In this document: one piece after another, positions 25,964 to 55,849 of the stretch
Position numbering within the stretch: position 1 is the first letter of the stretch
Layout of the letters: each line of letters begins with the position of its first letter
Origin: Tubiluchus corallicola
Lineage: Eukaryota > Animalia > Priapulida
Direction: 5' to 3'
NCBI GenBank assembly: GCA_030141605.1
Contig: JAQGDQ010000157.1
Span: 261,266 to 325,265, forward strand
DNA: 64,000 nucleotides
Position numbers and translations under genes: made by a program
The notes under the pieces: model-generated
Databases searched by the model: none
What the model was told of the DNA's origin: nothing
What the model saw: the letters and a program-made list of their open reading frames with translations, nothing else

Positions 25964-28900
25964 CATCAATAACTCTATAATATAAAAATATAGAGTTAGT
26001 TATGCAGAGTTACTTGAGTCAATTGCCGACAGTGTTTATATACTTTTGCATAGGAGTGGCCTGCACTAGACGTTTCTGAGACAATTAGGCGACATTAATT
26101 GTTTCTACATTACCGAGAGTCTAATACCACATTAGCATAGTATCGGTAAATACGGACAATTGGCAAATTTGGACTGACATCTGAGTGAACTCTTGATGGT
26201 AATTTCTGAAGGATATTCAAATGCTTGACTAAACAAGAAAATGTGCTATAACAAAAGCATCTAAGCAATTTAATGTGTAAAACACATGAAAAACACAAAA
26301 TTACATCATTTGACTGAGTCAGCAAGCTGAGAAAACTCTTAAAAAGAGCACAATAACTGATTAACATAAAACAAAACAAAGCAAGTACTAGAGCACAACT
26401 TTACCCTAAATTTGAAAGAGCTGCAGTCAATTCTTTTTCTAAACGCAAGAGACCGTCTCTTTTTTCATCACATTCCAGCACAGATTGCAAAGCAGTCGTT
26501 TCGTCGCCGACCACTTCCTGTTCTACGTGCAGCATGCTGATATGGGACGGTATCTTGAGCTCACCACTAAAAATGATAAAACATATGACGCAATGATTAG
26601 GATACTTGAGAAACAAGGCAAACGATTCTTGAGCGACCCGAAACGTCCGACAAAGTATGATTGTATCCTAGCTGGGGTGGCCTAATTTCGGATTGCAACC
26701 ACGCTGTCTTAAGTTCGAGTCCAGTGACTGCCAGCACTAGGACATATACCCTACATGTTATTCGCTGTTTGTGTGTTGCGTCTTTATCTGTATTGTTGTA
26801 ATGGCTATGAAATACTGAAGTGACTGGCGATCATGTCTAGAGAATAGCATCAAGAAACAGAATGTCCAGATTTTCAACGTATGATGATGCACCGAGTTAC
26901 GAGTTGCTTTCGCGCATCACCAGAATGCTCACCACCGGAGTTCCTGGTCACCAGCTGCCTCGGTGTATCATAGACTTAAAGAAAGACAGGATAATTTTTC
27001 ATCTACTACCCCATTTTCAAATCTGATAAAAAGTATACATTTTAACACAAGTAATACTGCAAAAGCATTTCTGATAGTTAAATAATAGATTAAAATCTTA
27101 ATTAATGGCGGACAAGCCCAACCACTGATATCACAAACTAAAGTAATTTTCAACAGCAAAAAAATTCTACGTGTATAACTTTTAATTAAAGATGAGTCAT
27201 TAGAGTAATGAAAGGTGAATCACTAGAGTGACACACGTTTGCTGGAAGGTAGATTTCTGCAAGTTATTAGTACTTTCTCATAAAAGCATGTTTTTTTACA
27301 GAACGAACATATTTATACATGCCTACATTACTGAAAATTATGCAAAAATCTAAACTTTTATAAAAAAATTCAATCCTAATTTTACTGTTAATATGCATGT
27401 GTTTGATTTTGCTTTTGCAATTCTCAAACGAATTATAAGTCAATCAGTGCATAGAAATGCTCAACATCTATTGTGCATTCAGACTAGCGACTCTTCTCGC
27501 CAAGTAAATTACAAACATGTTCAAACTAAAGAGCAAAACTTACTGCGAGTTACTCTCCTACAGAAAGCACGAGCTGACAGTCAATTATCTATTCACTGCG
27601 AGAAGTGTTGAGAGTAACTTGCCGAAGCGAACACACTAGCAGGAAGTCAACTCGCAGCCATTGTCACACTTGCAGTTCACATATGTGAGTTTACTGTGAG
27701 TTAGACACTCGTGACAGAAAACACACTAGTCTGAATGCGTCGTTAGATAATAAATGGTTCACTGAAAGCAACTATGACACAGATATGTTTGAAACTACAC
27801 TCATATCTCGGATTTCCGGGCAAAAGCGGGGAGATATCGCACTGAATTTGTCGATTGCCCGTAATTACCAATACTAAGCTAATACAGTAGGTGCCGTGTA
27901 TTAGACTCACGGTAATGTAGAATCAATCGCCTAATTGTCTCAAAAATGTCTAGCAAGAGCCGCTCCTCACATACAAGCTACACACGTGTCGTTAAACACT
28001 GCTTGGTTACACTGATGTAATGATGTAAACAAAGTAGCATGCAGGACTTTAAACAATGCAGATTTTGTCCAATTTTTCCGATATCCGAAAAAGCGAAGTC
28101 TAGCAAACCGAGATATGAGTGTAAATTCAAAAATTCCTCTCTATCTCACTTAAAACACAAAGAGTATATCTCACTAAAGTGTCACAACTAAATCACAGTC
28201 CCCACAAAAAGACAGACTTGCAAATAAGAACCGACAGATTGTTGAAGGAAGCACCTACGTTGCGATCATTTTCAACATGGTAGTTTTTCCTATCCCGTTT
28301 CGACCGACTAGCCCATATCTACGTCCGAAAGACATTTGAACATCAGCACCTTTGAGCAGAACTCTGAAAGAAGTATGAATTGACAACTTTGACACATTTA
28401 TATAAAAAATATATTGTAAATAATCGCACTTAATACTTAGATTTATGCTAATAGAAGACAAGTAACACTTTATGCATTCTTTATGCAAAGTTAGAAAGTA
28501 CTGCTGTTTGTTTCTTTGGTCTTTGCAGAAAATTATTCTTTACAAATTCTGAATGCATCTAAAAATTTTGCATAACAGTTGTTCAATAAGAAAAAGAATG
28601 TGGTTTCTATAAGAGAGAAGAGCATGGTTTCTATAAGTAAAAAGAGCATGGTTTCTATAAGTAAAAAGAGCATGGTTTCTATAAGTAAAAAGAGCATGGT
28701 TTCTATAAGTAAAAAGAGCATAGTTTCTATAGAGAAAAGAAGCATGGTTTCTATAAGTAAAAAGAGGGTGGTTTCTATAAGAGACAAGAGCGTGGTTTCT
28801 ATAAGTAAAAAGAACATGCTATCCATAAGAGAAAAAAACATGGTTTCTAAAAAGAGAAAAGAGCTTAGTTTGTATAAGAGAACAGAGTGTGGTTTCTACA

Positions 28901-31900
28901 AGAGAAAAAAACACTGTTTCTGTAAGAGAAAAGAACATAGTTTTTATAAGAATAAAGAACATGGTTGCTATAACAAAAAAGAACATAATTTCTATAAGAA
29001 AAAACATGGTTGCCACAAGCAAAAAGAAACATGGTTTTCATAAGAGAAAAGAAAATGGTTTTAGTTTTACAATTGTATTACACTGTATTTATACACAGTC
29101 TGAGTCTGTTATTTCCAGTGATTTGCGAAAAAGTTATTTGACTAGTATAAGATTCTTGACATTCACAAAGCGCATTATTACTGGGCATTTCTGCAAACAT
29201 GATGTATTCAACACACCGTTAGAAGTCAAGACTTGATTCACAGTAAAAATAGCTTACTTGCTGCCAAATGCAATATCACAGTTTTCAATTCGGACATCAA
29301 AAGTCCTGTTTGCACCACTGGCTTCCAGTCTTGTTTCCTTCCTACTGGTTGCCTGACTAGCTGTAGCACTCGATGACAGGTCCCTGAAAAAACAGACCAT
29401 TTTACACCCAGAAAGACTATATCAGGCTTAAAAAATTTATAAACGAATATCACATTGGGTTTAATTTCTGGTGTTTTAACTATTGAATCTTAACATGATT
29501 GAATGCTACATTTTTTACAATTTAAACTTATACATAGAACCCAGAGCTGCAACATTTCAGCTGAACTCCAGCTGGTTTATATCTACAGTCGATCTAGCCG
29601 AAGAGAAACCCAGCTTTATTTGCGGTAGTTGCTCAGTGATGGGAGTCGAGCTAGCCAACATTTTGCTCTTGGGATAATCATGTGACATTACAAATCACTG
29701 GTTGAAATATGGCAAATGCATTATGGATTTGCGATCAGATTGTGTGTGTGCTGGCAGAGACACTAAACTTTAGAAATTTCTGAATGAGACAGATGATCAA
29801 TTCAATATTAATTACACTAGTAGGCAACGTTAGTCATACGTATAGGATAATTTTGGTGTTTTGGTATTGATTTGTCGGTAATGAAGATAAGCTTCACCAA
29901 GAGTTGGATTTAAATTACATTTGCAATAAATCCATTGCTTCTTTATAATAATAAAAAATTGATCTCTAATGCATCATTTGAATTTGTACATCAGCTTTTT
30001 TCTGTGTATAAGCAACATGAATTACTTAAAAAATTTGTCTCCACAATTTAACAGTTAACTAACAATTATCATTTATTTAGTTAACAAAAATTCATCGCTT
30101 CAGCTGACTTAGCTGATTATTTTCTTGAAGCCAACTCAGCTGAAAAGTCAGTCAACCTCAGCCGAGCTAGCTGGTTTACTGTGTAGAAAAATAAAAGCAA
30201 GAAAATTTTGTTACAAACCCATTAACAGTTAAGGGTAAGGCATCATCTTTGCTCCTTTTTTCCTGTTTTTGCCTCAGCTTCGCTTCAGCTTTTCCCAGCT
30301 TTTTCTGGTCCACCAGCTGAAAGAAAATAAATTATGCCAGTAATTCATTTCTGACAAGACACAGCGTGATATAGCATGACATAACACAAGGTAACAAAAT
30401 GTCAATATATCATTCTAGTATCAAAAAAGAGTCATTATACAGCCGTTCTTGCTGCATTTATTTAAAGGAAGACAGGATGATTTTCACATACTATCCCATT
30501 TTTAAGTACGGTAAAAAGTATACATTTTAACACCAATAATACTGGAAAAGAGTTTCTGATAGTTAAATAATAGATGAAAATCTTAACTAACCACAGGCAA
30601 GACCAACTATTGATGACATCACAAACAAATTTAATTTTCAACAGCAAAAATATTCCACTAATGCGTTGCGCATGTTTGCTAAAGCGAAAATTGAAGTACA
30701 GTGTTACTATAACAGACTCAGTGTGTTAGTTCTAAAACTACAGAGTGTTTTAAAACTAGGCAAGTTTCACAAAAAAATTTCATATTTACCGCTGTGCTCA
30801 CGCATGAGCTGCCCAACGTGTGTAGTATATCAGAAACTAACACATCTGAACTGAGAGGTACAGTACCTGTTTTTGTGCAACGCGTTTCCAAAATGCAGGC
30901 ACTAGCGCCCACCTAACTAGCACATGGCAAAATGCATGTAACAGTGAAGAACTAGTGGCATGAATGAGAAATTGTGTTTGTGTGGTAATAATTCTTTCAG
31001 GTAAATCATCACTAGTAAAAAAAAGAGTATGTATCCTTTCAATACTTTAAACAGTAGATTGTTTTGACCTACAGTTTAAGATTGGTCCGGTTTTACTTTA
31101 AGAAACAATACCTCAAAGCAAAAAACTGCAGAGTAAGTTAAAATGGCTGGTTTATACCAAGCAGATACAACTGACCAACATAAGGTCCCTTACTGTGGTT
31201 TCTTTGCGAACTGTGCACCATATACTCGTATCTTCTTGAGCTTTTTGCTCTAATTCGGCAGCTTTGGAACTCAAATGAACAGTTTCATCCAACTTGCGAA
31301 ATTCATTTTCCTGATTCGCTTCTGCATCACTAAAAATACGCACATACACTAATTATTGCTTGAGACAGGCCATACCATTGTATTTGATACGAGATGCAAG
31401 AAATACTACAAATGCGCCAATCTCAGTAAACGTTACAATTTAGCACTGTGACCAGATGAGAGGAAATAATCGAAACACAAAGTTGCACTTTTGGGTTTTA
31501 AAAACAAAACTGCTCTAAAGAATAAAAAAAAACAAATTCGAATACAAACTGGAACAATTTACTAATTTACAGATTTTAATGTCTCTACACAAAGTGACAA
31601 CATTTCCAAATTTGCTGGCATGCAAACAGTTACACAAGTTCATATAAATATATTATGCTTATCCTCCCAGTTGATTGATAGACATGTGGGTGGTGATTAT
31701 TGTATAGGCTTAGATAACATTTAGGATAGATAACATGTACAGTAAGACCTCACTTAACGACTCTCCATTTAGTGACGTTTCTTTTTAACACTTGACACCT
31801 TTTTTCACTTAACAACGCACAATTTCATTTTAACATCAATTTTGTTTTACTTCGCTTGAAGCCAATTTTTATTTTATCAACAACTCTTTTACCTAATTTA

Positions 31901-33999: not shown

Positions 34000-36277
34000 A
34001 CTTTGATGCACAGAGGTGAGGTACCATACATACGTAGCATACTATCTTGGCATATCTGGAGAAAATCCTGAATGAGATTTGCCTCGGCGTTCTACGAAAA
34101 TAGGAGCTTTGGGAATCAATAAAGAATGTATATCACCACATGAAAAAGATACACTACACAAGATATATCAGTGAGTTAATAACCGTAAGCCGAGGTTGAC
34201 GTAAAATAACAGTTGTGAGAAGTGATTGCATACCTGTACTTTAGCTTTTATATAATATTAATTCTTTATTTGTCATTAAAATGGTTCACTCATTACAATA
34301 AAAGTGAGTAAGCCTCAGCATAATGTTAAAGTAACAACATTGTTCAAGACAAATGCGTCAAGTGCAGACTAAAAAAAACTAAAGTGCAAAACTAAGGTCT
34401 AATTATTTACAATAACATGCACATATTTACAAACACGATATTAAAACTTATTTACAAAACAATATTACAAAAGTACATTAAATTTTACACAACGTTTACA
34501 TTGCATATACATTTGACATGACACAATTAACAAAACCTTTACATTACATGAATTTTATATTCATTACATTTAGATTATTCATGCATTTGACATTACATAA
34601 TTAACAGAACACGCATTACACTACAAAAATTTTATATTCTTAGTCATTTACGTAGATCAGGGCCTGGCGTAGTTGAAAGTCGGGTCTGTGTAATTATCAG
34701 ATGCATAATTTGGAAGTTGAAATCTGTTATATTGATATTTTTTTATTTTTTTTAAACTGGTGTAGAGATTTGATTTGTTTTGTTTCACTGGGTAGTTCCA
34801 TAAATGTATGGTTTGTTTGAGTTATTTCCAAATTTATTGCTTACTGCAATTTGCTTTAATTTGTGCGTTCTATTGTTTCACGCGGTATCTGGATTGAACG
34901 ATAAAGGATTTTTTATAAACGGAATGCTCAGTTTATTGATATATTTATAAAAAATATCAGTGTTTTGTAATCTCAATAGGATTCTAATATGCTATTCTTC
35001 TAAAATAAATGTGTCAGTCACTGTCAATGGCAAGATGAAAATATCACAGTTAATAAAGACGTTGTAAACAATGCATAAGAAAAAGGCCATACGAAAAGGA
35101 CAAAAATGGAAAAACAGAAAAAAGCACCTGTATGTTTTTGCTGCGATATATATACTTTTATCATTTTTGCCTACATTCATAATTTTTGAAGACCCTGCAA
35201 AAAGGAGCCAGTGGGTTCCTACTTACTTTTCATCAATATCTGCAGTATAATTATAACTGTAAGTTTACATTTCAGGGAGTCCTGTTACGGCCAAACAAAG
35301 CTACCCTTGGCAAGTTCTCATCAAATACAATGGACGTTTTGTATGTGGACGTTCTCTTGTGCACCCATGTTTTATACTCACAGCAAAGTACTGTTTAGGA
35401 GTTACTCCTAAATGGGTTAGTGTAATATTAGGTGAGCATTAATAATAGCATTAACAGGTTCAACACAAGATACTTTATAAGATACAAGCTGTCTTTACAG
35501 TCTTTTTGTGTAAGGAGTTTGCGCTAGCAGTTATGGCCCTTAGGTGCAGCCATTTTAATGGTTTACAAGTCTTTTGAAACAAGTTTACATAACATTGCGT
35601 AAAGTTTGAAAAATCAATCAGAAGTTTCGTAGCGCACTCTTCACTAACTAAGTAAAAGTATAAATCACTTTATATTGTCTGTAAGATCAATAACATACTT
35701 TTGGTGAATCAGTGGTGCACACTGGGATGGCGATGGAGTGCCGTTTTACCAGGTGGCACGAATATTTCAAATTTTTAAGAATTTTCCTTTCCAATTACAT
35801 AAGTCTTTCAAACAAGTAAGTGTTCTTTTACATGCGATGTACACATTAAATAAAGTCTAAACTGGATTAGTTTAATGTACATTTATATAAAAGCGTTTAT
35901 CCGTTTTCTGTTAAGGCGTGCAACAACCTCACACCACTATCAAGTCAATCCTAGTTAATAATGAACAATGGTTATCTCTGATCATAACTATGGCTTACAC
36001 TATAAGTGTGATGCTGAGTAATATAACTTTGTAATGAATTTTCTTTGGGATATAGTTTAAAATTCCCATTTTCTTCCCATTTAATTATCCCGGCTTTTTA
36101 AAACCCACAGGTGCACTATTTACAATTGATTAGAGATATAGTAAAATGAACATTAGCTTACATTGATATAAAATGATTATTTTGCATTTCAAATCAAACA
36201 TAACGATACAATGTTAATAGCAAAAAATCACAGAAAAAGCTTGGCAAAAGGTAAAAAATATTCATAAAAACAAGAAA

Positions 36278-36890
36278 GATGTGCTTGCACAGCAAAATCG
36301 TCCATAAGTTGGCAATTAAGTTTTTCTAGTTATTCATATATCCAGAATCTCCAGGATCATTTTGATAGCAAGCTCATCGCTCTATGTTATTTCTAAGCTG
36401 AGATAATCCACACTGAAGTTGAGATAGACGCTATGAAGTGTAAAATGTAACCTTGAGAAAATCCCTGTTTAAGTCAACCATTGTTTTTTGTCTCGTTTCT
36501 TCTAAACACTTAGCAACCGTACAAATGTTGGTTGCTATGGACTTTGCAAGAGCACATTGAAGTTATTTTTAAATCCAGTAGATGGCTCTTCCTGACAAAA
36601 ATTCGGGCTTGGCAAAGAAAAAACCTGAATCAAAATGATCGCTTCCACAAGTTATAGGAGTTTGAAAATACAACTTTTTCACAATTGCATTACTAGTTTC
36701 TAGCCAGAAAAGTGGATACGTTGTTATAAAATTACATTTAGTATTTTTTAAACATTTTCTTGGTAATTTGGTGCTAGAATATAAAAGTCTAATACGTATA
36801 ATTAGCATTTATTTTTATAAAAAATGTGAAACATTGACTTTTGGCCAAATTAAATGTGCCAACTTACGGATGGTTTTGGTTTGCAAGCAT
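36278..36890. mobile_element. MITE family D, uninterrupted copy
   Basis: Both TIRs present; shows the empty TTAA and TA sites that are filled in other copies. Confidence 0.75.
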
Positions 36891-37141
36891 AGTAATTGTC
36901 CAATTTTGCTCGTTTGATCCCAGTGATCCTTAATTTAGCCCTATGAGCATCTCTTACAAGGTCTTTGATTCAAATCTGGTGTCTGCACATTTTTTTACAT
37001 TAATCTTTTTGATTCCTGCAAGTTCCAGTTTTGACAAAAATTTAAGGGCTTCTTTCATTATTAATAATTTAATTCTGATAATAATAACCCTTAACATTTC
37101 ATAATAATCTGTAATCAATTTCAGTTTTGCACGACTAACGA

Positions 37142-37255
37142 TCACAATTTCCTGCTTACAGGATTGAAGTAAAAATCTTTGAGCAAAAATGTTTGAAATT
37201 CCGCAGACTGCTTCAATCCACCCATCGTCTCTCTCTGTGACACTAGTTTGTTAAC
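37142..37255 (-). CDS. caspase alternative terminal exon 10b (distal)
   Basis: tttttgcag acceptor, phase 0; VNKLVSQRETMGGLKQSAEFQTFLLKDFYFNPVSRKL then TGA; canonical caspase C-terminus. Confidence 0.85.
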   Translation of the reverse strand, partial: VNKLVSQRETMGGLKQSAEFQTFLLKDFYFNPVSRKL

Positions 37256-40200
37256 CTGCAAAAACATTAAATCATTTATTTTATAAATGTGAAGCGTAAC
37301 AACACCCAGTCAAAGCTACTCAGCATTAGGGAGAATTCATGTGAGGCACGGCCGTATAGGTTTCAGAGTAGAGGAACCTACCTCTTACTCAGTGGCGACT
37401 CATAGCTAAAATTAGTGGGGGTGCTGTTTCAAAAATGTTTCAGCCATTGTTTTAATACTGTGTAAAACGAAACAAACATAATTATGTAATTTTAATGTTG
37501 CAATTTGTAATTGTAATTTTAAACAAACAAACATTCGAAAATTTATACATAAACTTGATAAAATCCTAGACAAAAAATATTGCTTGCTTTTGAGTAGCCT
37601 AAATTGTTGCAGTTCAAGAATATGCTGGTACACGGCTTTTAAGCATGTGACAACTGATACCACACTGCGTGAGCGACAGAACTTTTTCTACTTAAAGTCT
37701 TGTCTCAGATATGGCCACATACGCACAACAGCTAAGTTGCTTGAGCTGTGAGCACACTGTACTGGGCTGAGAAGCAAACAGTACTACCCTCACGTGCTCT
37801 GGACAGTACAAGTATAAAGAAAGAACTAAAGAAAAAAGACTTATACTGAATAATATAGATATATATAGCGAAAATAGGGGGTGCTGCAGTTCCACAGTGC
37901 CAACACACGAGACGCCACTGCACTTACTCTACATAAAGTAGTGTTCTAAATCATGGACTATAGCACAGAACAAAACCCATTACCACGAATTCTTTACTGT
38001 GACATCTGAATTAAAACAAGTCAGCTCGCTAGCTCAACGTGACCAAAAATGCTAGAAATCTTTTTTAAAAACTGTACGAAATCAATTAGTCATATTCCGT
38101 TAACAGGTAATTAAATGGTAAAAATGAACAATGTTAGGATTCTTAGATTATCTGGCCTACTTAATATGCAACATGAATTCTTGATGAAACTTTTAGTAGT
38201 TAGTTAATTAACCTGTCAGGTTTATCGAGTTCTGGTTTATTACTGCTACTGTCATTGCATCAGCTAATTAAATGTCTCAGCCAATTAATTTTTCTTATAA
38301 CATTCAAAGTAGCAATTGTTTCAATGGGTCTTTTATCTCTACAACCTTAACTCCTTTAGGACTGCACTACTCATAATAGGTCTTATAAGACCTATGACTT
38401 TTCTACTACTGCATGAGCACTGACATAACTAAATGATTACAAATTAGGTACTGTTCTGTTCAGGAGAATCTCGGCCATCCAATCTTGCTATTTGTTTAAA
38501 CATTTATAAGTGATTTAATTTGATAAAATTAAGAAAAACGCCATTTTCAGGTACTTCAACTTAGCTTATTGAGTAGCTTAGTCTGGTTTACACTTGCGTG
38601 ATTGTACACACTATTTTATTGATCACCTGATTATTATAACTCAAGAAAACTGTCTGCTGTCATAGATTTAGATGAAGCGCATTCACATAGAGAGATTGCT
38701 AGCTTACGTATAGAACAATATTTCAAAGGTGTGCCGCTCAGGGGCTGGTTTTGTCTAACAATCGAATGCAGTTTTTCTGTATTGTACAACATGGCATCCA
38801 TTGTTTGCCTAACAGAAGAGCATATAGCGTATAATTTCTATTAGAATATGGCGTCCATTGTTGTTTCTCTTTTTGCACGAGTCTAGCAATCTCTCTGAGG
38901 ACGCACCTAAATCTCTTGTTTGCTGTACAGAGTTGTAGGTAAAACAAACTGATCAGCCCAGGAAAAATTAAAACCATTTCATCTTTTAACAGGTATTTCT
39001 CCTTAAAAATAGAGTAGATATGAGGCCAAAGTCTATCAGAGTGTTATGTCTGGATAGTTAAAACTTTCTGCATTAGCCGATTTCATACAAGTGGTATTGT
39101 ACTCTGTTACAGTACAAACACTGCAGCTACTGAAAGCTTTTTTCTATTTTTGTTAAAAATCGATTTTAATTTGTTTAAGGTAAGTAAAAAGCATTTCATA
39201 GATAATTTTGCAGAAAAATCTATTGAGTGAAGTGTAATCGCTGCTCAGTGAAAGCAGTTATTCATGAACCCATGCAAAATGCAGCAAATGCTTACGGTCC
39301 TGAAGGAGTAAAACAAAAGAGTGGTGCTCTTCCTGTTTATTTTATTTTTAGTTTAATTTTACATAAACTTGCACTGACGAAACTACTATGTTATTTAAAA
39401 ATGTAGAAACAATTTTACCATTATCACTGATTTTAGCATTGCAACTAGAAGGGTTCAGATAAAGCTCCTTGATTAGACTACTTTCTCTAGATGGAAGAGC
39501 ACCACTCTTGCCCACTCGAACTGACACTAACTGTCCCACCTGAATAATATGAAAACAAATTCAGTGAAAAATGTAAAGTGATTGTCGTAACATGTGAAAA
39601 ATAATACCATTTATAAAAAACATGATGAACAAACAATCACGTAAAGTAAATAAAACACCTCACCTCAGTTAGAAGTTTATTGATCTCATAATATTTTGCA
39701 TAATTCATAAAAACTTCAACTAGAGATTGGATAAACCAGGATCCATGAGCCGTGTTTCTGAAGCTTTGATGACCTGTAACATTACAATCAGTGCTCATTC
39801 AGAAACATATAAAAATGTGCTCGTTACATTTATATATTTTACTGTGCAATTTGCATTGTACCTGGTGTAGGGGAAAATTTTAAAACAAAACCAATCTTAA
39901 ACTGTAGGTCAAAACAATGTACTCTTTAAAATATTGAAAGGAACCATACTATTTTTTCAAAAATGATTTACGTGAAAGAATTATCACCACACAAACACAA
40001 TTTCACATGCGCGCCACTAGTTCTTCGCCGTTACATGCATTTCGCCATTCGCTAGTTGACTGCCACTAGCGCCTGCATTTTGGAAAAGCATTGCACAAAA
40101 AACAGGTGCTGTGCCTCTCCGTTTAGATGTGTTAGTTTGTGACGAACTGCACACGTTCTACAGCTCACGCGTGAGCTGAGCAGTAAATTTCACATTTGAA

Positions 40201-43200
40201 TTTTTATCTGAAAACTTGCCTAGTTTAGTACAACATACTGAATATCTTATACCACCACTGTACTTCAATTTTTGCTTTCACAAACATGTGCAACACACAC
40301 GCGTGGAATATTTGTGCTGTTGAAAATTATGTTACTTTGTGATGTCATCAATAGTTGGGCTCGCCTGCTGTTAATTAATTTTTTAATCTGTAATTTAATT
40401 ACCAGAAACGCTTTTGCAGTATTTATTATGTTAAAATATGTACTTTTTATCGGATTTGCAAATGGCGTAGTATATGAAAAATCGTCCTGTGAGACAATTA
40501 GATGATTGATTCTACATTATCGTGAGTCTAATACACGGCGCCTACTGTATTATCTTAATATCGGTAAATACGGACAATCAGTAAATTTGGACCGATGTCT
40601 CCCTGCTTTTCTGTCAAACTGAGATACGAGTGTAAATTAATTTCGTTCATTTTTCAGTTTCACTTGGTTTGAATTCAAAGTTCTGTTAACAAGATTAATA
40701 AGTTAATAAGACTGTGTTATGTCAGTTAAATATATCTGTATGATTTATAGACCTCTTGCTAGAAAAATGCACGAAGATGCGAAAAAAACCATCACAATTC
40801 GAGAGGGGAAGTTTAAGTTAACCAAGGATCCACTTGTAATACAGGCTAGTATACAAAAGCAACATATCTGTTTCAAATCAATTACATAAACATTACTCGT
40901 GCCATGTCAACAATAAGTGCTTACCTGGCATACTGGATCGACAGATGAGAAAATCCCCTAAATTAGGGTCCTTAGTCTTTGGAGGCAGTACTGGCATTGC
41001 ATCAGCGACGTCTGCACCATTATGTAGCTGCGTAGACACTAATGGAGAAGTACTGCTAGTCCCGATCATGCTGAGATCGCTATCCGGCCCTAGCAGATGC
41101 GACGGGGCTGGTACTGGAGGGTTGACTGAAGGCATGGCAGAGTCTCCAGAGTCAGCACCTACGTCGACACGATCTAAAGTGATTATATATAGACTCCGTT
41201 AATAAGTGATGTTTAGAAGGCAAAATACAAAAAAAATTTTCTTAAAAGAAAACCCAATCCAATCTTAAATTATAGCTCAAAACAATCTACCCTACAAAAT
41301 ATTGAAAGCGAACACACTGTTTTTTCAAGACTGACTTAAATTAAAGAATCATTAACACGTAAACCTAATTTCATGTTCAGGCAGTTAGTTCTTAGCTGTT
41401 GCATGCATTTCGCCATTTGCTAGTTAGATGGGCACTAGCGTCTACGTCTCATCGCACAAAACACATTGCACAAAAAAACAGGTGCCGTAGCTCAGTTTTG
41501 ACATGTTAGTTGTGACATAGCATACGTGTTGAAAGCTCATGCGTCAGCACAGCAGTAAGCCTGCAATTTAAATTTTAAACTTAAAATTTGCCGAGTTTTT
41601 GTATATCAAACTGAATTTCCACTTTCGCAACTACATGCAACACGCTTATGAATTGTTTTAGCTATTGAAAATTATGTTCAGTTGTGACGTTTTTCACTAG
41701 TTGGGGTTGCCTAGTTTTTAACCTGTTATTTAGTTATTAGAAAAGCTAAGGCATTATTATAGGTGTTAAAATGCATAGTTTTTACTATACACTCATATCT
41801 CGGTTTGCTGGACCTCACTTTTACGGATGTCGGAATAATCGGACAAAATCTGGACCCCTGAAAAGTCCTGCAAACTACGAACACAGTCTGTTGTTTCGCG
41901 AACTGACCGCTAGTTGGCAGGCCGTCACTTTGTTTACATCCAGGCAGCATGTAGCGACACGCATGTAACTTGTATGTCAGTGTGTTTAAGTGGTTTAATT
42001 AGTCTGTGTAAACGGTTTAGTGTCAGTTCAGCCGGAGCGGCCCATACTAGACGTTACTGAGAGAATTACATGACTGATTTTGCATAACCGTGAGTCTAAT
42101 AAACGGCGCCTATTGTATTAGCCTAGTATCGGTAAATACGGACAATCAGCAAATTCGGACTGATGTCTCCTCGCCTTTGTCTGGCAAACCGAGATATGAA
42201 TGTATTTTAAAATAGGCTAGGATATGAAAAATCATACTTTTTCTTTTAATGTCGTTTATTCTTAAGTTCTGAATGTGTTAGTTGTAATAATAACTGCCAC
42301 TAGGGATATCAAAATATCATTAATAAAATTTTGTTGAACACATTTTGCTACAATTCTTTTCAATAATGACAATGATAATTGTATTAAACAGTCCTACACC
42401 CCTGCCATTTAAATTAAACCACAGCGCTGTAGCGAAAGTAATTGACCTAACTAGTTTTATTGCTTAATATTTTGTAAAACAGGAAATATATGCAAAAAAA
42501 CTTACCTCCTCGACAAGCTTGTATTATGAACAGCTTCGGTTTTCCACTTAATGCTGGAGCCGAGTTTCCTGAAAGGTACATCAGTGTAATCTTGTTACAT
42601 CATTTCCTTAAAAATCACAAAAAATAATAACTTCTCAAATAATGATTTTGATTTGAAATGGCCCTAAACTTTATTTAAAGCACAAGAAAACCCTCCACTT
42701 ACATAAAGCTTAAAAAACTTGCCGTGAAATTTTATGTCACTTACATACTGCTTTTTTCCATGCAGGGCTTGAGTCGACAGTAACACTGTATAAAACTTGA
42801 AAATTTAAACTCCTGCGATGACTGTTTGGTGCAGCCATTTTAATGGTAGGTTGAATCAACTTTGGATAACATTGCACGAAGTTTGAAAAAATAATCAGAG
42901 CATTCGTAGCATTAGTACATTTTTAAATTATTGTATCTTGTCAATAAGATTTAAAATACGTTTTCTGGTTAGTGAGTGAATAATAAGGAGGATGAGCCAG
43001 CGACATTTTACCAAATGATGAAAACATTTTAAATTATTATTTCTAGTTGCATAAGTCCTTCCAGCGGGTAAGCGAAATGCTAAGTAATATAGATTTGCGT
43101 GGAAAGTTTTTTGGGACATAACTTAACATTTCCTCTTCTTCCCTTGATTTACGCTGTATTACGTCACGTAATGGTGCGGTCGGAACAGTATTATGGGAGA

Positions 43201-46200
43201 TATAAAATGAAAACAAACAAAAATTCTGTTTAACATGAGTACCATATATGCATAAAATTGCTGTAAAGTAAAATAACTTTTTAAGGCGATTTTTCTCAAA
43301 CCTACTTCATGTACCCCTTTTCTTGTCCTTTAAGCCTTCACAATCTGCAATGATTTTTACAAGTCACTCAAGTATCAACTTTTAAATTTGGAAATATTGA
43401 AAGTGTCACAATACTAAAATATAAATTCTGAAACACTATGATGCAGCCGTATCTGCTTAGCTGGTGTTTGATTAACTGTGGTTTTCTGTATCTCACATTC
43501 CACCTCAAAGTGCGATATGTTTCTGCCATACAGAAGTAGTGATGTACCTATAACTGCTTAGTTATTAGTGCTTTTTTTGGTTTCCATGGATACGAATTAC
43601 GAAAGGTCAACTAAACATAACGGCGCCTTTTGCAAGCAGTAAACTGTGAAATAAAATCGCATTACGCCATTTGCCAACGGTGGTACCCGCTCAATGGAAT
43701 TTTTTGCAGATTTTCCGCACAAAACTCACCTTTCGAAAGAGAGTGCACTGCCAAATAAAACGATTGGTAAACACTCAATGCAAACAGCTAAAGGTGAAAA
43801 ACCCAGCCAAAGATACGAAACCTCAGTCATAGATATGAAACTTCATCATAGATATGAAAAGAGCTCTAGCTGCTATATTTGCAATTACGGCCTCGGTCAC
43901 AGTTACAGGCGTGCCTTCAAACTAGTGTTTTCTCGCAAGCTAATGAGCTGCGAGGTGCTTTTCGACAGTAAGCGCGAGCAGACACTTCATTTTCATTTTG
44001 CTATGAGAAATTTGTCAAGGCTTTCACTCTACACACTAGTTCGCAGGAAATGAACTCGCCGCAAGTGTCGGAGAGTTTGCAATAACTTGCCGACAGTAAC
44101 TCGCAAAGAATTTCACATTTTGCGAGTCTGATGCCAGACAGAAAACAAGATAGTCTGAATGTAATGTAACAATATGAATCTCACGTGAGAATGCATCAAG
44201 GACGTCAGCCATTTTGATGACATCACCATCTACTCCTAGGATCGCGTCACCACTGTCATCTTTTCCATGGCTCAAAATAACGACTACCGAGCAATCTAAA
44301 TGGTCAGGTCGTTTTGCAAAATCCCGCAGATCAGAAAGCATCACCTGCAAATGGAAAGTTCTTATTATCAACACACCGCTGAAATGTATAGTGAAGCCAC
44401 ATTGAAAAACAGTAAAGATTAGAAAGACTAGAAATTGGCCATCAACATATAACAATATCAAGCTTAGGGTAGGTAGGTGGCAGATCTATCTTTGCTTTTA
44501 GTAATTCAGAAAAACTGAGTAGGTGTCTCAAAGAATTCAGTCAAAATCAAAAAGCTCACAGTCCTAAGTGGTACCTGGGCAGTTTTGTCCTTTCGTTCAG
44601 GCAGAACCTTGAATCCCAAACCGTCAAACAGGTAATTAATGTTAATCGAGTCAAAGTCGGTGCCGTAACGTTCAATGAGGCAGGTGTGCCTTGCAAACAC
44701 TCTATTGTTTAATATGAGACATAACCCACGTGGCTCACTCTCCATTCTAGAATAAACAATAAAATTGAAATTAAAGAATTAATTAATCAGAAATAGAATT
44801 AAGACGAAACTATAAAATTATTAATTAAAATTTCAAAACAATTGACAGTTGATGTAGTGGCAATGAATACATCTGAGGCGAGCCGCCAGACCAGAGGCTA
44901 GCTCGTTATGCGTAAGATGAGCCACTGAACTGCAATGTGTGTCAGATATGTGACAAAGAGAAAAATGTGAAGAAGTGGGGAACAAGTCTAAAAATAAAAA
45001 TAAGATTAAGGCTAAATGTGAATATAAATGTAAATATATATAAAATATGTAAATAAATGTAATCATAAATGTGTATGTTCTGATAATTATGGTATAAGCG
45101 GCAACACTACTCGGCCATTAATACACCAATTTGGCAGAAATTTTGATACTTTTTAGCCTCCAATACACTGAACATCATACAAAACGGCAACCCTGGCAGA
45201 GAGTTAGCCGTGAAAAAACATGGCCGCGTTCTGCGTTCTCGGAAAGAACGATGTTATGATAAATATTGCATTTTACGTTTTAAATTTAAAAAACATGCAT
45301 TTTATATGACTGCGTGAAGTAAGCATATGAACATACAAAAAAATTATAAAATTCCCGGCCGGCAGCGTGATAAAAACATTACCTGGGCGATTAGACGGAA
45401 ACAGAAATATTTTTATTATCGGCCTTAGTGAAACATGAATAAGGAGATGAGAATAAAAGCATGTAAATTGAACATTAATCTGTATTAATTAGTTAACAGG
45501 GATTTGCGACAAAATTAAACGGATGTACTCTGTGAAAACAAAATTTGTTTTACCTATAACAGGTTTCTGGATTATATCGACTGACTATTCCTGGTTGCAC
45601 GTTTACGTCTATAAACTGGGATGGCACTGAAAAGACGAAAATAAATCACTCACCAATACAAATGTAATCAATACAAATCCTCGACACTATGAAATATAAA
45701 TTCCTTTTTACATGGGCAAGAGCAAAGTGAGATATGAAGAATTAAAGCACAAGAAAACACTCTTCATAAATCTGTTAGCAGTAACACTGTAAAGAACTTG
45801 TAAAGCTAAACTACCGCGACGACTGTCAGACGCAGTCATTTTAACAAAGTCATTAAAACAAGTTTAGATAACATCGTGTAAAGTTTGAAGAAAATAATCA
45901 GAGCATTCGTAATGCATGCTTCACTAGCTAAACAAAAGTTTAAGTTACTTTATGTTGTGATTAAAACCTATAACGTGTTTTTTGGTGAATCAGTGGTGTA
46001 CGCTGAGATGGTGATACAATGACATTTCACCAGTTGGCGCAAACATTTTAAATTATTCAGTTACATAAATCTTTCAATCGGGCAAGCGTAATGCTAAGTA
46101 ATATAATTTTACATGGAATTTTCTTAGTATATACTTTAAAATGTGCCTTTTTTCTCCATTAAATATCAGTTAAGTATGTTAAAGCAAAACTCAAAAGTTA

Positions 46201-49200
46201 AAAAATGATCTTTTGCAACTGACTTTTAATTGTAATTTGGTATGTCTTACTTTAGAACATAAAATTATAACAGCGAGACTGACATTATAACAGAAAGACA
46301 AAGATGTATTTTCTGCATTGAGGTTAAAGTGATATACTCGTATCTTGGTTTGCCAGACCTCACACTTACGGATATCGGAAAAATCGGACAAAATTTGGAA
46401 CGTTTAAAGCCCCGCATACTACTTTGTTTACATGTCAGTTTGTTTATATCATTACATCAGTGTAACCAAGCAGTGTTTAACGACACGTGTGTAACTTGTA
46501 TGTGAGGAGCGGCTCGTGCTAGATGTTTTTGAGACAATTAGGCGATTGATTCTACATTACCGTGAGTCTAATACACGGCACCTACAAAATCTGAACGTCA
46601 CTTTGTTTACATCATTACATCAGTGTAACAATGTGTACATATATCTATATATAAAAATATAGAGTCAATTACGAGGAGTCAATTGCCGAAAGTTTTATAA
46701 ACTATTGCACAGGCCCGTACTAGATGTTTTTGAGGCAATTAAGCAATTGATTTTACATTACTGTGAGTCTAATACATGGCGTCTACAGTATTAGCTTAGT
46801 ATCGGTAAATACAGACAATCGGCAAATTTGGACAGACGTCTCCCCGCTTTTGTCCGGCAAACTGAGCTATGAGTGTAACTAAATCTCTCGTCTTGTGCTT
46901 AGCTGACATTTTGCATTGCAAAGTGTAAATTAGACCGCTAAAGAATTAAGCAAAAAATGCAAAGGTGAAAATATGCCTAGAACAAAGATGCTGATTGGCC
47001 CAAGTCAAAATGCAGACAATCGTGTGGCTTTACATCACAATTTTTATGTCTGCATAGCAAGCAAGGTAGATTTATGTAGCAAAGTTTGGATTTAATAAAC
47101 GACGGATTTTACTAGGTTAACAGTTCCATTGTAGCCATAATAAGGGGCTGGATTTATTTCCGTGGATCTATTAAAGGAAGACAGCATATTACCCCATTTT
47201 CAAGTCCGATAAAAAGTATACATTTTAACACAATGCGTACTGCAAAAGTGTTTCTGATAATTAAATAATAAATTAAAAACTTAATAAACGGATGACATCA
47301 CAAAGTAACATAAATTTCAACAGCAGAAATATTCCACGAGCGCGTTGCACTTATTTGCAAAAGTGAAAACTGAAGTACAATGCTAATGTATGATACTCAG
47401 TGTGCTGTACTAAAACTAGGAAAGCTTCAAGATAAAAATTCAAATTTAAAGTTTACCTCTGTTGCTTTAAGCAAATTGTACTGTAGTTGCAAGCCATGTA
47501 AAACAACATGGCTGAAACAAATGCCATTGAAAACTACACTTGTACTTTAATTTCATTTACGATATATTAATTTCAAAATCTTACCTACCATCATTTGGAA
47601 GGTAGTTTGCTTTCGGTGGTTCAGCAGGGTCAAGAGGACCGGTAGCGGCTCTTACGCTTCCGAGGTGATTGCTAATTCCAGGAGATCTGAAGAGCAAAAT
47701 GCACAGAATTGAGAAGTTCGCTTTCTTGTATATTGTTTTGCTTAACTTGCTCGAGTGATTATGCTAATAATTAAAACACCTTTTCAAGATTCATTTTATT
47801 TTATTTTTCTCTACAAATTAGATGCAACTGCAGAAAAAAAATTGATGTAGAAAAAAGGCAGGGAAAAATGAAATTATCACATCAGAAATAAAACAAGAGA
47901 AAACAATGGCAAAGCTATTGTTGTATTCCATCAAAAAATTTTTGCTTATTCATTTTGGAAAGGTAAATTGCACAGTTTGGAGTAATACTATCATTAAATT
48001 AATCAAATTATTGCATTGTGCATTTTTGATCTTTTTATATACTATATAATTATTTTGTGTGGAAATAAAAGAATTTGGTTGATCTTACCTTGCCAGCTGT
48101 CGTGAAGCTCACAATTCCATCAATATGTTTAACTGATTATCATCAATAGCATCACTGTAGATGCATTTATCCTTTGAATGTTAATCTGATAGTCATAGTA
48201 TTACATTCTTTTGCTAAAATATTGAATTTAAATCTAATGCAAAGAACTCACTAAATTTCAGCTATAAAACTGATTTATTCCTCTGTACACAGTCTCACCT
48301 ACATCATTGCACAGAAGCTCAAACTAGTGTGCATAACATTTCCCTTCAATCATTTGCTGGTTCTTTTCATTACCTGTATAGAAAGTTTTACCTGGGAGTT
48401 GCTTTTGCAGAGCTTCAGATTTCACTCTGCTGTATTATTTCTGACTTCTTAAAAATAAAATATACGTGATATGAACATATCACTTTCCTGCATTCTACCT
48501 TGGTTATGGTGCAGTTTTATTCTTCCAAAGCAGCAGTTTTTCAGCATATACCTTTAGAAATCTTCATACAAGCCTCAAAGTGGCAACACTTGAACAAACA
48601 TTAAAATTTAGAAAACACTTTATAGAATAACAAGTCTTATAGATCTTACATCAGTTCAGCTAATTCTCCCTGATTTGATTTACTAAGAGCTTCAAGAAAC
48701 ACACGAAAAGCTCGATCATCGCTTCGCAGTAGCAAATCAATCAACTTGCTTCTTTGGTTAAACATTACAGATTCACCCTGCAAAACAAAATTACAGATTC
48801 ACCCTGCAAAACTGGCCACGTGTTATTAACCAGAATGGAAGCACTAATGAGCTTGGATAAGGCACATTCTCCTTGGTCATTTCTTGTAAAGTAAATGTTC
48901 CGTAAGAAAATCATGGGAAGAAATTACTTTTTTAATGGAGTTCTCTTTTTTCGTAAAAATTTATAATACTTATATGCATTGTTATAGTAGATCATTTTGC
49001 ACATTAGAAGACGAAAGTAACCACAACAAAGTAACATTGTATACAGCAGATCCATTTAGTGGCATATTAGAGGGCAGTAATACGAGCTCCGTAATGGTCT
49101 GGACAATGGCCCACAGTCTCTTAACTCCTTCAGGACTGCACCATTCAAAATAGGTCTTATAAGACTATGACTTTTCCGCTACTGTATGAACACAGACATA

Positions 49201-50733
49201 ACTAAATAATTACAAATCAGGTACTGTTCTATTCAGGAGAATCTTGACTATCCAATCATGCTATTTATTTAAACATTTATATGTGATTTAATTGTATAAA
49301 GTTAAGAAAAACGTGCTATTTTCAGGCACTCCAACTTAACCTATTATTGAGTAGTTTAGTCTGGTGTACACTTGCATGGTCCTATGCACTAATTTATTGA
49401 TCCTTTGCTTGCTGCAGCCCAAGATGAGCTGTGTTCTGTTGCTATTCCAGGAAAAACCAACCGATCAGTAAAGGGCAAGTTAAGGCGCTCATCTTTTAAC
49501 AGGAATTTTTCCTTAAAAATAGAGTAGACTTGAGGCCAAAGTCAATCAGAGTGTTGTGTGTGAATAATTGAAATTTTCTGCATTAGCTGATTTCACACAA
49601 GTAATACTGTACATTGTTACAGTGCAAACACTGCACATACTGAAAGCTTTTTTAATTTTCTCGCAAAAAATTGATTTTTAATTTGTCTAAGCAAGGTAAG
49701 CAAGTGCATTTCACATGCTTCAATTTTGCATGAAAATCCATTGCGTGAGGAGTAGAAACCTACAAAAATTACGAATAACATAATCGCTGCTTAGTGAGAG
49801 CAGTTTTCCATGAACTCATGTAGAATGCAGCAAGCACTTATAGTTCTGAAAGAGTTAATGCAAAATTTCATCCTCCTACAATAAAAAGCTTTTAAAAATC
49901 TCAACAATAACAACAACTCAAGCATAAATTCATGTCAGTCTGCCGGATCCAAAATTTACAAGCAAATATGCCACGTACGTTTTGCCAGTTTGGAATGAAC
50001 TATAGGATCATTATTATGGACTCGCTATCATTGCTGTTATTAACACTTCTGTCAGGATAATTAGGCAGACTAATCGCAAAAAGGTTTATTTTGGAAATAA
50101 ACAAATAACTTTACATATTGACAAGTATGTTGACATGATGAAACTGCTACACTGTAATGATTAGGTGCTATGCGAGTACACTCATTCAAACTCTATATCA
50201 TTATCTATACCATTATTGAAAATAGTCAACAACACCAGTCCGAGTACCGATCTCTGCGGAACATATACAAGTATGCCAATTTATAGCAAGTATAAGAAAC
50301 AACAAAAGAAGAAAAGGTGCAATCTTGTTGTAGAGATAATGAATAACAAAGACAACCAGAAACTCATTCTAGTGCTACAAAGTAGGTATCTCAATTTAGT
50401 TCATAAAGTTTATTAAAGTAAAATAACTGTATCTGGCAGGCAATTGGAAACTCTCAAGTTCAATATCAGGTCAGATTTTTTTCGTAACTCTTATAATTCT
50501 TGTCATATCAAATACTAGCATCTCATTTTTGGCTACAACCAAACTCCTCTAGCCATTAAAATCACTTAATTACACAGATTTCAGGAAACAAAGTAACTGA
50601 CTTTTACAGTTTCCACGCGGAACTGATCGAAAACATTTTCCTGCTGCAAATAGAACAGCACTGGATCCACATTTAGATCTTGCACAAGGCGGTACAGATG
50701 TTGTTTAATTGCACGTTTGTCCTCATCCTTCAT
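37142..50733 (-). CDS. CARD-containing initiator caspase (caspase-9/caspase-2-like), about 432 aa with distal last exon or about 458 aa with proximal last exon
   Basis: Exons (minus): 50733-50602, 48777-48650 (CARD), 47686-47589, 45626-45554, 44746-44575, 44344-44185 (ILSHG), 42568-42506 (KPKLFIIQACRG), 41173-40925, 39773-39664 (SFRNTAHGSWFIQ), then 39539-39348 or 37255-37142. Boundaries are GT-AG with consistent phases. An in-frame TAG upstream of ATG 50733 supports that start. Confidence 0.9.
37390..37920. mobile_element. hAT-type MITE family H
   Basis: CAGTGGCG...CGCCACTG with near-identical 8-bp TSD (ctcttact/cacttact). Confidence 0.8.
38347..39312. mobile_element. TTAA-flanked MITE family B
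   Basis: ttaactcctttaggac...gtcctgaaggagtaaa. Confidence 0.8.
39348..39539 (-). CDS. caspase alternative terminal exon 10a (proximal)
   Basis: attcag acceptor, phase 0; VGQLVSVRVGKSGALPSRESSLIKELYLNP... then TAA. It could instead end at an internal donor near 39419. Confidence 0.7.
   Translation of the reverse strand: MGQLVSVRVGKSGALPSRESSLIKELYLNPSSCNAKISDNGKIVSTFLNNIVVSSVQVYVKLN
39664..39773 (-). CDS. caspase exon 9
   Basis: HQSFRNTAHGSWFIQSLVEVFMNYAKYYEINKLLTE; GTGAG donor, phase 0. Confidence 0.93.
40925..41173 (-). CDS. caspase exon 8 (inter-subunit linker and start of small subunit)
   Basis: DRVDVGADSGDSAMPS...DVADAMPVLPP...GDFLICRSSMP. Confidence 0.9.
41788..42204. mobile_element. 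MITE family F nested in family E
   Basis: TA TSD and family F TIRs; family E sequence resumes on both sides. Confidence 0.8.
42506..42568 (-). CDS. caspase exon 7 (catalytic Cys)
   Basis: NSAPALSGKPKLFIIQACRG. Confidence 0.95.
42675..43333. mobile_element. Kolobok-like MITE family G
   Basis: TTAA-AGCACAAGAAA...TTTCTTGTCCT-TTAA. Confidence 0.78.
44185..44344 (-). CDS. caspase exon 6 (catalytic His)
   Basis: DCSVVVILSHGKDDSGDAILGVDG. Confidence 0.93.
44575..44746 (-). CDS. caspase exon 5 (start of large subunit)
   Basis: MESEPRGLCLILNNRVF...ERYGTDFD...LFDGLGFKV. Confidence 0.93.
45554..45626 (-). CDS. caspase exon 4
   Basis: PSQFIDVNVQPGIVSRYNPETCY, giving the canonical Y-x-M junction (CYRMESEPRG) with the next exon. 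Confidence 0.8.
46333..46877. mobile_element. MITE family F (with internal duplication)
   Basis: Family F TIRs; the internal segment gattctacattaccgtgagtctaatacacgg occurs twice. Confidence 0.75.
47589..47686 (-). CDS. caspase exon 3 (Pro-rich linker)
   Basis: SPGISNHLGSVRAATGPLDPAEPPKANYLPND; phase 2/1 joins both neighbours. Confidence 0.7.
48650..48777 (-). CDS. caspase exon 2 (CARD helices 4-6)
   Basis: NQRSKLIDLLLRSDDRAFRVFLEALSKSNQGELAEL; GTAAG donor. Confidence 0.88.
49121..49858. mobile_element. TTAA-flanked MITE family B
   Basis: ttaactccttcaggac...tctgaaagagttaa. Confidence 0.8.
50185..50262 (-). mobile_element. LINE reverse-transcriptase fragment
   Basis: Minus strand VPQRSVLGLVLLTIFNNGI, a degenerate GVPQGSVLGPxLFxIYINDI RT motif. 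Confidence 0.55.
50602..50733 (-). CDS. caspase exon 1 (CARD helices 1-3)
   Basis: MKDEDKRAIKQHLYRLVQDLNVDPVLFYLQQENVFDQFRVETVK; acceptor ttttccacag at 50801 implies an upstream UTR exon. Confidence 0.85.
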
Positions 50734-54735: not shown

Positions 54736-55849
54736 ACGTATGATTATATGCTCTTTAAACATCTTTTAACTTGAAATTAACAAAACATGCAGATGCTTAG
54801 ATTAAGTTTTGCTCTGGAAAAATTATCTGCTCTTCTGAAAAAAATCGATTTTTTTCTGTGAAAGGTATTTTACATGAAAGCCAGGCCTAATATTTCTTCA
54901 AGTTATATTTCCTGATAAGAACATATTAAATAGGAATGTTTTTTTAGAAATTTGTAAACTTGTGTTTGCAAACTTTCTTTATGATCAACATTCTTAACTT
55001 CTTTTGTAAATAAGCCTATTAATTTTTATGAGATATGATTATAATAATTTTTATTTTAACTACAAATTATTCTTAACGCCTTATGCTTGCTTTAAATAAT
55101 ATTCAAAAAGATAACAGCTGCTATAAATCGCCAAAGAGAGATGTAGGCCTTGCAGTCTTTGCTTAGCGTACAAAATATTTAACTAGTAACAAAAGTTTCA
55201 AAACTGTGTTATAATTAACATTTTATTATAATTACCTGGCTGCATCCTTGCGAAATTTAAAAAGATATCTTTTTGTGTTTTTGCAACTCACTGCTGAGCA
55301 ATTTATGAGCGCCTGTTAACCGGGCTGGTTTTGATGGTCTCATCAATTCATCTGCTACAGTACCCACAGCCTGCGCTGTTGCGTACCTGACAACAACAGG
55401 CCGTACTGAATAGCCGCTAGGGCGACACTAACTGCGCGAACTACTGCGCAGAAGTATTCCCTACTTTATTGTGTATACTTTGTTATTTGCAATGCGCTAA
55501 CCTTTTTCAAAGATTTCTAGCTGCTACGATCAGTTATCAAACTTATCATGAAAATTATAGGAATTGACTGCTTTCGCAATCAATGTGTACAATAGATGGA
55601 GAAAGATTTTTATAATGATTGCTTTAGCAGATGTTTATCACTATGTTTAAATTTACTAAGTGATTAGTATGCTTCGACCACAAGAAACTGGAAGGATAAT
55701 TATCTTTGTGAGATAGATAACTGTGGTAATGTGATAAAAACCCGTTGCACTTTACCGACGTACAACGGTATATTGTTGCTTTTGGTCACATTGACGATGA
55801 AGTGAAAATATTTTCATAAACGTCATGTAAAAGCAAGCAACAGGAAGAA

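What the first reader, a model, noticed from the sequence alone, without database searches (positions are those of the whole stretch)
37142..39539. Initiator caspase with two duplicated, interchangeable last exons that swap the dimer-interface beta6 strand
Seen: after exon 9 (phase 0 donor at 39664) there are two phase-0 exons with good acceptors and open frames. They are homologous to each other: 10a VGQLVSVRVGKSGALPSRESSLIKELYLNP and 10b VNKLVSQRETMGGLKQSAEFQTFLLKDFYFNP (shared VxxLVSxR...LxKxxYxNP). No second copy of any upstream exon lies between them, so this is not a tandem gene. Established: this segment of the small subunit carries loop L4 and strand beta6, the homodimer interface (GCFNF in human caspase-9, CIVSM in caspase-3), and swapping those five residues changes caspase-9 dimerisation. 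The equivalent pentamers here are SRESS (polar) and EFQTF (hydrophobic). Inference: one gene may encode two caspases with the same CARD and catalytic dyad but different dimerisation or substrate properties, or an active form plus a heterodimerising regulator. I do not recall this arrangement being described for caspases.
Basis: partly seen in the sequence, partly recalled or inferred. Interest (0 to 1): 0.8.

Follow-up and report, generated by a model that had tools for sequence, protein, structure and literature searches.

The report
Caspase with two duplicated last exons
A cell-death protease (caspase) gene, likely from a priapulid worm, carries two long-diverged, still intact copies of its last exon, and it likely uses either one to make a near-standard enzyme or a variant with an altered pairing surface that is predicted to be weaker or short-lived.

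Summary
A nine-exon CARD-caspase core (395 aa, catalytic SHG and QACRG intact; closest relative Priapulus caudatus XP_014678986, 44%) is followed by two homologous phase-0 terminal exons, a (39539-39348) and b (37255-37142). No copy of an upstream exon lies between them. Silent sites are nearly saturated, yet both match the Priapulus last exon at 16 residues, which rejects a copy dead since duplication (0 of 20,000 simulations). Recent death (under about 0.1 substitutions per site) is not excluded. Exon a has a strong acceptor and an AATAAA just after its stop. Splicing to either exon is inferred, not shown. The larger difference is that a lacks the conserved Asn and Lys-Gln, fits the family profile poorly (6-8 bits against 29-31) and has a 33-residue hydrophobic tail. 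The mechanism is known (77 human C-terminal cases, no CASP hit in that catalogue), and caspase-10B already swaps a caspase's last exon. The scan has noted duplicated last exons in other genes and genomes, none in a caspase.

The parts
50602..50733 (-). coding exon 1, CARD first half (ATG at 50733)
   Evidence: Pfam CARD E 6e-4; joined to exon 2 in a contig of run X1
48650..48777 (-). coding exon 2, CARD second half
   Evidence: Pfam CARD E 4e-5; joint 48778-50603 in X1
47589..47686 (-). coding exon 3, linker
   Evidence: GT-AG, frame and alignment to P0053
45554..45626 (-). coding exon 4, linker
   Evidence: tblastn with P0001/P0002; frame
44575..44746 (-). coding exon 5, large subunit start
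   Evidence: Peptidase_C14; 66% to Priapulus
44185..44344 (-). coding exon 6, catalytic His (SHG)
42506..42568 (-). coding exon 7, catalytic Cys (QACRG)
40925..41173 (-). coding exon 8, intersubunit linker and small subunit start
39664..39773 (-). coding exon 9, last shared exon, phase-0 donor
   Evidence: Peptidase_C14 E 2e-8; PDB hits to CED-3 and caspase-3
39348..39539 (-). terminal exon a (proximal): 30 homologous codons plus a 33-residue hydrophobic tail, stop included
39336..39346 (-). two overlapping AATAAA right after the stop of a, with a T-rich element downstream; candidate proximal poly(A) site
   Evidence: chance within 30 nt about 0.04; downstream element matched by 9 of 94 sites
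37390..37920 (.). 531-nt MITE-like insertion with terminal inverted repeats and an 8-bp target-site duplication (1 mismatch) in the a-b spacer
   Evidence: the label hAT-like is recalled from the 8-bp duplication
37142..37255 (-). terminal exon b (distal): 37 codons, closer to the family pattern, stop included
36808..36813 (-). first AATAAA downstream of b (an ATTAAA lies at 37073); weak candidate distal poly(A) signal
   Evidence: 33 of 94 sites have as good a downstream element

Best explanation
An old tandem duplication left this CARD caspase with two intact last exons, and the gene likely uses them as alternative endings: exon b would give a near-standard initiator caspase, and exon a would give a variant with the same CARD and catalytic dyad but an altered dimer-interface segment that is predicted to be less active or less stable. 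The inferred choice is by alternative polyadenylation: splicing exon 9 to the near acceptor and cleaving at the AATAAA right behind a's stop gives isoform a (458 aa); skipping a across a 2.4-kb intron gives isoform b (432 aa). No consensus-like phase-0 donor was found in a, so the two cannot plausibly be used together. Shown: anatomy, homology, past selection on both copies, intact signals. Inferred: present-day splicing, poly(A) use and all biochemistry. Isoform a would most likely act as a damper, competing for the CARD platform or forming weak heterodimers, much as caspase-10B differs from 10A/D.
For: Codon pattern: in the 24 unambiguous codons, identity is 9, 17 and 10 at positions 1, 2 and 3; 7 of 10 shared residues use different codons. 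Both copies are equally close to the outgroup P0053 (16 of 30 and 16 of 32), and a alone keeps six outgroup residues that b lost. Codon models reject 'a dead since duplication' by 6.6-7.7 log-likelihood units (4.6 without outgroup) and 'b dead since duplication' by 7.8. In three neutral simulations 0 of 20,000 copies kept 14 of 24 outgroup residues. Acceptors rank 2nd (a) and 4th (b) of 778 AGs with a matrix trained on the gene's other eight acceptors, and 5th and 15th with an untrained score. AATAAA plus a T-rich element follows a's stop. The gene is live in a relative: an X1 contig joins exon 1 to exon 2, and 9 of 9 listed differences in exon 1 (17 in all) are synonymous. For a weaker a: profile score 5.8-7.9 bits against 29.4-30.7 for b, HHalign 19% against 94%, last-21-residue hydropathy 1.06, above all 108 relatives (max 0.94).
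Against: Recent death of a is not excluded: up to about 0.1 neutral substitutions per site costs only 1.3-1.5 log units, and a's defects (Gly where 97 of 110 relatives have Asn and none Gly; no Lys-Gln, held by 99 and 95 of 110; Arg at pentamer position 2, 0 of 110) are also what early decay looks like. The tail looks like read-through into AT-rich DNA (7% chance of staying open). Decoy acceptors score as well as a with the untrained score (39299, 37798). All six Priapulus caudatus RefSeq isoforms seen (two loci, 3 each) have one ending per locus, so the arrangement was not seen conserved. The test rests on 24-30 codons, and a matches the second Priapulus paralog no better than background.
Confidence: 0.55

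Rival explanations
1. Exon a was used for a long time but has recently died or decayed into a leaky, degraded minor product; only b makes protein that matters.
For: Loss of near-invariant Asn and Lys-Gln and an unprecedented Arg; poor profile fit; hydrophobic read-through-like tail, a known degradation signal in human cells (bioRxiv 10.1101/2022.07.20.500724, abstract only); likelihood allows about 0.1 substitutions per site of neutral decay.
Against: Best fit is no neutral phase at all. Frame, acceptor (rank 2 or 5 of 778) and poly(A) signal are all intact. A strong dead acceptor 124 nt behind the donor would divert transcripts from b and should be selected against (inference). Exon b also carries rare residues (Phe at pentamer position 5, 0 of 110), so this lineage drifts here anyway.
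Confidence: 0.28
2. Two complete tandem paralogs diverged under selection as separate genes, then one lost its promoter and exons 1-9. Exon b is the orphan, and a is the only ending of the surviving gene.
For: Explains selection on both copies without alternative splicing. This family duplicates in priapulids (two 84%-identical genes in P. caudatus). Neutral decay of b up to about 0.2 costs only 1.45 log units. Exon a sits next to exon 9 with its own poly(A) signal.
Against: No remnant of any upstream exon in the 2.1-kb spacer. It would leave a canonical core with the less canonical ending as its only option. The acceptor of b is still strong.
Confidence: 0.1
3. Both isoforms are fully active enzymes that differ in dimer affinity or substrate preference through loop L4 and strand beta6.
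For: Exon a keeps Pro, ESS, Leu, Lys and Tyr of the outgroup. Glu at the interface centre is tolerated: caspase-1 has Glu390 there and V266E activates procaspase-3 (PMC2805924, passages). Natural caspases without Lys-Gln exist (P0108, P0110) and one has Lys at pentamer position 2 (P0059).
Against: No fetched member combines all of a's departures; 34 of the 35 lowest-scoring members shown score 25 bits or more against a's 6-8 (most members were in the training set).
Confidence: 0.2

Closest known systems
Tandem exon duplication-derived C-terminal substitutions (human catalogue, PMC8373072; e.g. GNAO1, MASP1)
   Same: Homologous duplicated 3' coding exons used by alternative poly(A); 77 of the 236 human events are C-terminal (passages).
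   Different: No CASP or CFLAR hit in that paper's supplementary table (GNAO1 and MASP1 found as positive controls) or in the one held supplement of PMC9741552. Those events have transcript support; this one has none yet.
Human caspase-10B versus 10A/D (PMC3101821)
   Same: [quoted passage not shown]
   Different: DED caspase, not CARD. Whether the 10B exon is a homologous duplicate was not tested here; it is not in the human duplicated-exon table.
Priapulus caudatus caspase-2-like XP_014678986.1 and ced-3-like XP_014664473.1
   Same: Closest proteins (44% and 41% over the whole length); one clade with the window's core (100/97); last-exon segment ends in the same YFNP pattern.
   Different: One annotated ending per locus in 6 of 6 isoforms seen; genomic DNA not available to check for an unannotated second exon.
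CARD initiator caspases CED-3, caspase-9, Dronc
   Same: CARD plus caspase domain; the Priapulus model's best Foldseek hits are CED-3 (4m9r) and caspase-9 (3v3k); groups with nematode CED-3 and hymenopteran CARD caspases (85/73, not firm).
   Different: Orthology to any one of them is not resolved; no vertebrate caspase-9 or -2 was in the tree. The label Dronc-like for the hymenopteran proteins is recalled.

Membership tests
CARD initiator caspase (peptidase C14A) | N-terminal CARD | tested here: met
   PF00619 on exons 1 and 2 (exon 1 alone is under the cut-off, as a half domain)
CARD initiator caspase (peptidase C14A) | His-Cys dyad in SHG and QACxG | tested here: met
CARD initiator caspase (peptidase C14A) | complete small subunit with family-type C-terminal strand, isoform b | tested here: met
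   29-31 bits; HHalign 94%, E 1e-7
CARD initiator caspase (peptidase C14A) | complete small subunit with family-type C-terminal strand, isoform a | tested here: inconclusive
   homologous (HHalign E 1e-3, 19%) but 6-8 bits and conserved residues lost
CARD initiator caspase (peptidase C14A) | Asp-specific proteolysis after dimerisation | not testable with these tools
   needs enzyme assay
Tandem-duplicated alternative terminal exons | two homologous exons in tandem, same phase, each with its own stop | tested here: met
Tandem-duplicated alternative terminal exons | shared upstream exons, no second gene body | tested here: met
Tandem-duplicated alternative terminal exons | purifying selection on both copies | tested here: met
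   for most of the time since duplication; the most recent period is not resolved
Tandem-duplicated alternative terminal exons | a poly(A) site for each exon | tested here: inconclusive
   motifs only
Tandem-duplicated alternative terminal exons | both junctions present in transcripts | tested here: inconclusive
   could not be decided with the one run offered; see Tried and rejected
Tandem-duplicated alternative terminal exons | pair conserved in related species | tested here: inconclusive
   not in P. caudatus annotation; no relative's genome available

The most novel reading that the evidence does not exclude
One initiator caspase gene encodes both the enzyme and its own catalytically intact modulator by swapping a duplicated exon that carries half of helix alpha5, loop L4 and the dimer-interface strand: a natural version of the GCFNF/CIVSM swap experiment, switched by poly(A) choice and kept by selection since silent sites saturated.
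Probability: 0.3. Interest if true: 0.62.

Novelty: new member of a known kind. Interest (0 to 1): 0.4.

Why it matters
Initiator caspases are switched on by dimerisation, and engineered changes in this five-residue strand alter dimer state, apoptosome binding and activity (PMC5123071, PMC2805924). A natural pair of isoforms identical except for this segment would be a clean test of how the interface tunes activation, in an early-branching ecdysozoan near the CED-3/Dronc lineage. The splicing mechanism itself is common, the pair was seen in one genome only, and neither use nor function is shown, which keeps the score moderate.

Tried and rejected
RNA: no RNA holder was listed for 36850-39800; one run (X1, RNA by guess, contigs) came by species label. 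It joins exon 1 to exon 2 at about 87% identity but has no cover on exon 9, a or b; this blank is no evidence either way. No whole genome is held. Homolog searches: exon 6 as query, 0 of 18 candidates scored; alignment A1, 97 of 734, no a-like ending seen among the priapulid proteins; alignment A2, 1 of 7, an unrelated caspase fragment. Complex prediction (two Priapulus bodies plus the a and b peptides as separate chains) gave no verdict, score 0.00, alignment not used; not evidence. Single-sequence fold of P0053 was unusable (pLDDT 36). ESM Atlas: no usable hit for a. Idea that a decayed exon 9 copy lies upstream of b (an AG at 38005 and a donor-like site at 37381 flank the MITE at suggestive distances): rejected, DNA score 83-86 against shuffles 83 +/- 9 and profile rank 1558 of 6336. 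Idea that the duplication is recent and visible in flanks: rejected. Idea that a splices on into b: no consensus-like phase-0 donor in a. Haplotype or assembly duplication: rejected, the copies are only 50% identical over 72 aligned bases. First codon-model run had fits that did not converge; it was redone. Literature: searches listed no paper on duplicated last exons in a caspase; I saw listings only for these, the library lacks most subscription journals, and the caspase-10 supplement (.doc) was not read.

Full report
The gene. The minus strand holds nine coding exons (50733 to 39664) that splice with GT-AG boundaries into 395 residues without a stop: a CARD, SHG, QACRG and most of the small subunit. 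The closest proteins are two Priapulus caudatus caspases (44% and 41%); in a 31-row tree the core forms a clade with them and one unnamed fragment (100/97). The animal is therefore likely a priapulid but not P. caudatus; this is inference from homology. A contig of run X1, about 87% identical in exon 1, joins exon 1 to exon 2, and 9 of 9 listed differences in exon 1 are synonymous, so the gene is spliced and constrained in a relative.

The observation. Against 1186 other AG-anchored open peptides of the window (mean 15.7, maximum 30-32), a scores 49 with the P0053 last exon and 45 with b. With the other Priapulus paralog it scores 35, equal to the background maximum. DNA similarity is weak inside the exon and absent in the flanks, so the duplication is old. 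No upstream exon is repeated in the spacer, which holds transposon pieces including a 531-nt MITE.

What the exon encodes. In an AlphaFold model of P0053 (mean pLDDT 82) the equivalent boundary (405/406) falls inside helix 399-413, and strand 425-428 is the start of the pentamer VFESS. So the swap covers half of alpha5, loop L4, beta6 and the C-terminal segment (element names are from general knowledge). The pentamer is the caspase-9 dimer motif GCFNF; F404D blocks dimerisation and the CIVSM swap enforces it but lowers activity (PMC5123071, passages). The centre position is Glu in a and both Priapulus genes and Gln in b; caspase-1 has Glu there and V266E activates procaspase-3 (PMC2805924, passages). 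The 'polar versus hydrophobic' contrast is thus misleading: a keeps the outgroup's ESS, b has moved to QTF.

Is a dead? Not for long. In 24 unambiguous codons identity is 9, 17 and 10 at the three codon positions, and 7 of 10 shared residues use different codons. Exon a matches P0053 at 16 of 30 residues and b at 16 of 32; six matches are private to a, four plus the Lys-Gln pair to b. Codon models reject death since duplication for a (6.6-7.7 log units; 4.6 without the outgroup) and for b (7.8). Three neutral simulations, one starting from a sequence chosen to favour the null, gave 0 of 20,000 copies with a's outgroup identity. The same models cannot exclude a recent neutral phase of about 0.1 substitutions per site for a or 0.2 for b. 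Signals are intact: acceptors rank 2 and 4 of 778 AGs with a matrix trained on the other eight acceptors, 5 and 15 with an untrained score under which real acceptors rank 4 to 98 and some decoys do as well. AATAAA follows a's stop at once (chance about 0.04), with a T-rich element matched by 9 of 94 sites.

The two endings are not equals. A profile from 110 fetched caspase segments gives b 29-31 bits and a 6-8, barely over the background of 5; HHalign gives 94% and 19%. Exon a has Gly where 97 of 110 have Asn, lacks the Lys and Gln held by 99 and 95 of 110, and has Arg at pentamer position 2 (0 of 110; Lys once). Its tail runs 33 residues past the shared end, longer than in 89 of 90 relatives in which the motif was found, and its last 21 residues are more hydrophobic than in all 108 relatives scored; such tails trigger degradation in human cells (bioRxiv 10.1101/2022.07.20.500724, abstract). 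Exon b has oddities too (Phe at pentamer position 5, 0 of 110).

Mechanism. Most likely (0.55) both endings are used by alternative polyadenylation, b giving the working caspase and a a weaker or short-lived variant with the same CARD and dyad. Rivals: a recently dead (0.28); b an orphan of a lost tandem paralog (0.10). Transcript evidence for the junctions could not be obtained (see Tried and rejected). The six P. caudatus isoforms seen show one ending per locus.

Comparison with what is known. Duplicated alternative 3' exons are an established class: 77 C-terminal events among 236 in human (PMC8373072, passages), with no CASP hit in its table or in the held supplement of PMC9741552 (main text not read). 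Human caspase-10B swaps the last 49 residues through an alternative last coding exon and becomes inactive and unstable (PMC3101821, abstract and passages). My seven searches for a duplicated caspase last exon listed none, in a library that lacks most subscription journals. Earlier scan notes report the same layout in other genes and other duplicated-exon arrays in this genome; these are unchecked and count as context only.

Verdict. Real feature, known mechanism, new gene family for it; use and function unproven. Interest 0.4.

Noticed in passing
window 35263-35439 (+): Single trypsin-like reading frame (Pfam Trypsin E 2e-8) between the caspase and the next gene; it reads LTAKYC where the catalytic His motif is expected, and a motif scan found no other trypsin piece in the window. 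Probably a gene fragment.
   Followed up: partly
window about 33750 down to 14700 (-): Multi-exon gene directly downstream whose open frames carry ABC-type Walker A and signature motifs; looks like ABCF3 (name recalled, not tested).
   Followed up: no
window 55820-56878 (+): Intronless TMEM185 gene, 353-codon frame (Pfam E 2e-44); possible retrocopy or intron loss; exact protein not in the collection.
   Followed up: partly
window 37920-37390: MITE with 8-bp inverted ends and an 8-bp target-site duplication; a second copy lies near 14475-13995.
   Followed up: partly
P0002, P0052, P0150 (Priapulus caudatus RefSeq): The ced-3-like models are fused to RPA1-type N-terminal domains (Pfam PF04057 and others); likely an annotation chimera or a partial duplication next to RPA1.
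   Followed up: no
run X1 against window 50603-50734: The run carries the same species label but differs at 17 of 132 bases in exon 1, so it is a related or cryptic species, or a paralog.
   Followed up: partly
window 28576-29040 and 6232-6731: Short-period tandem repeats (about 24 nt and 3 nt based) giving long spurious open frames.
   Followed up: no
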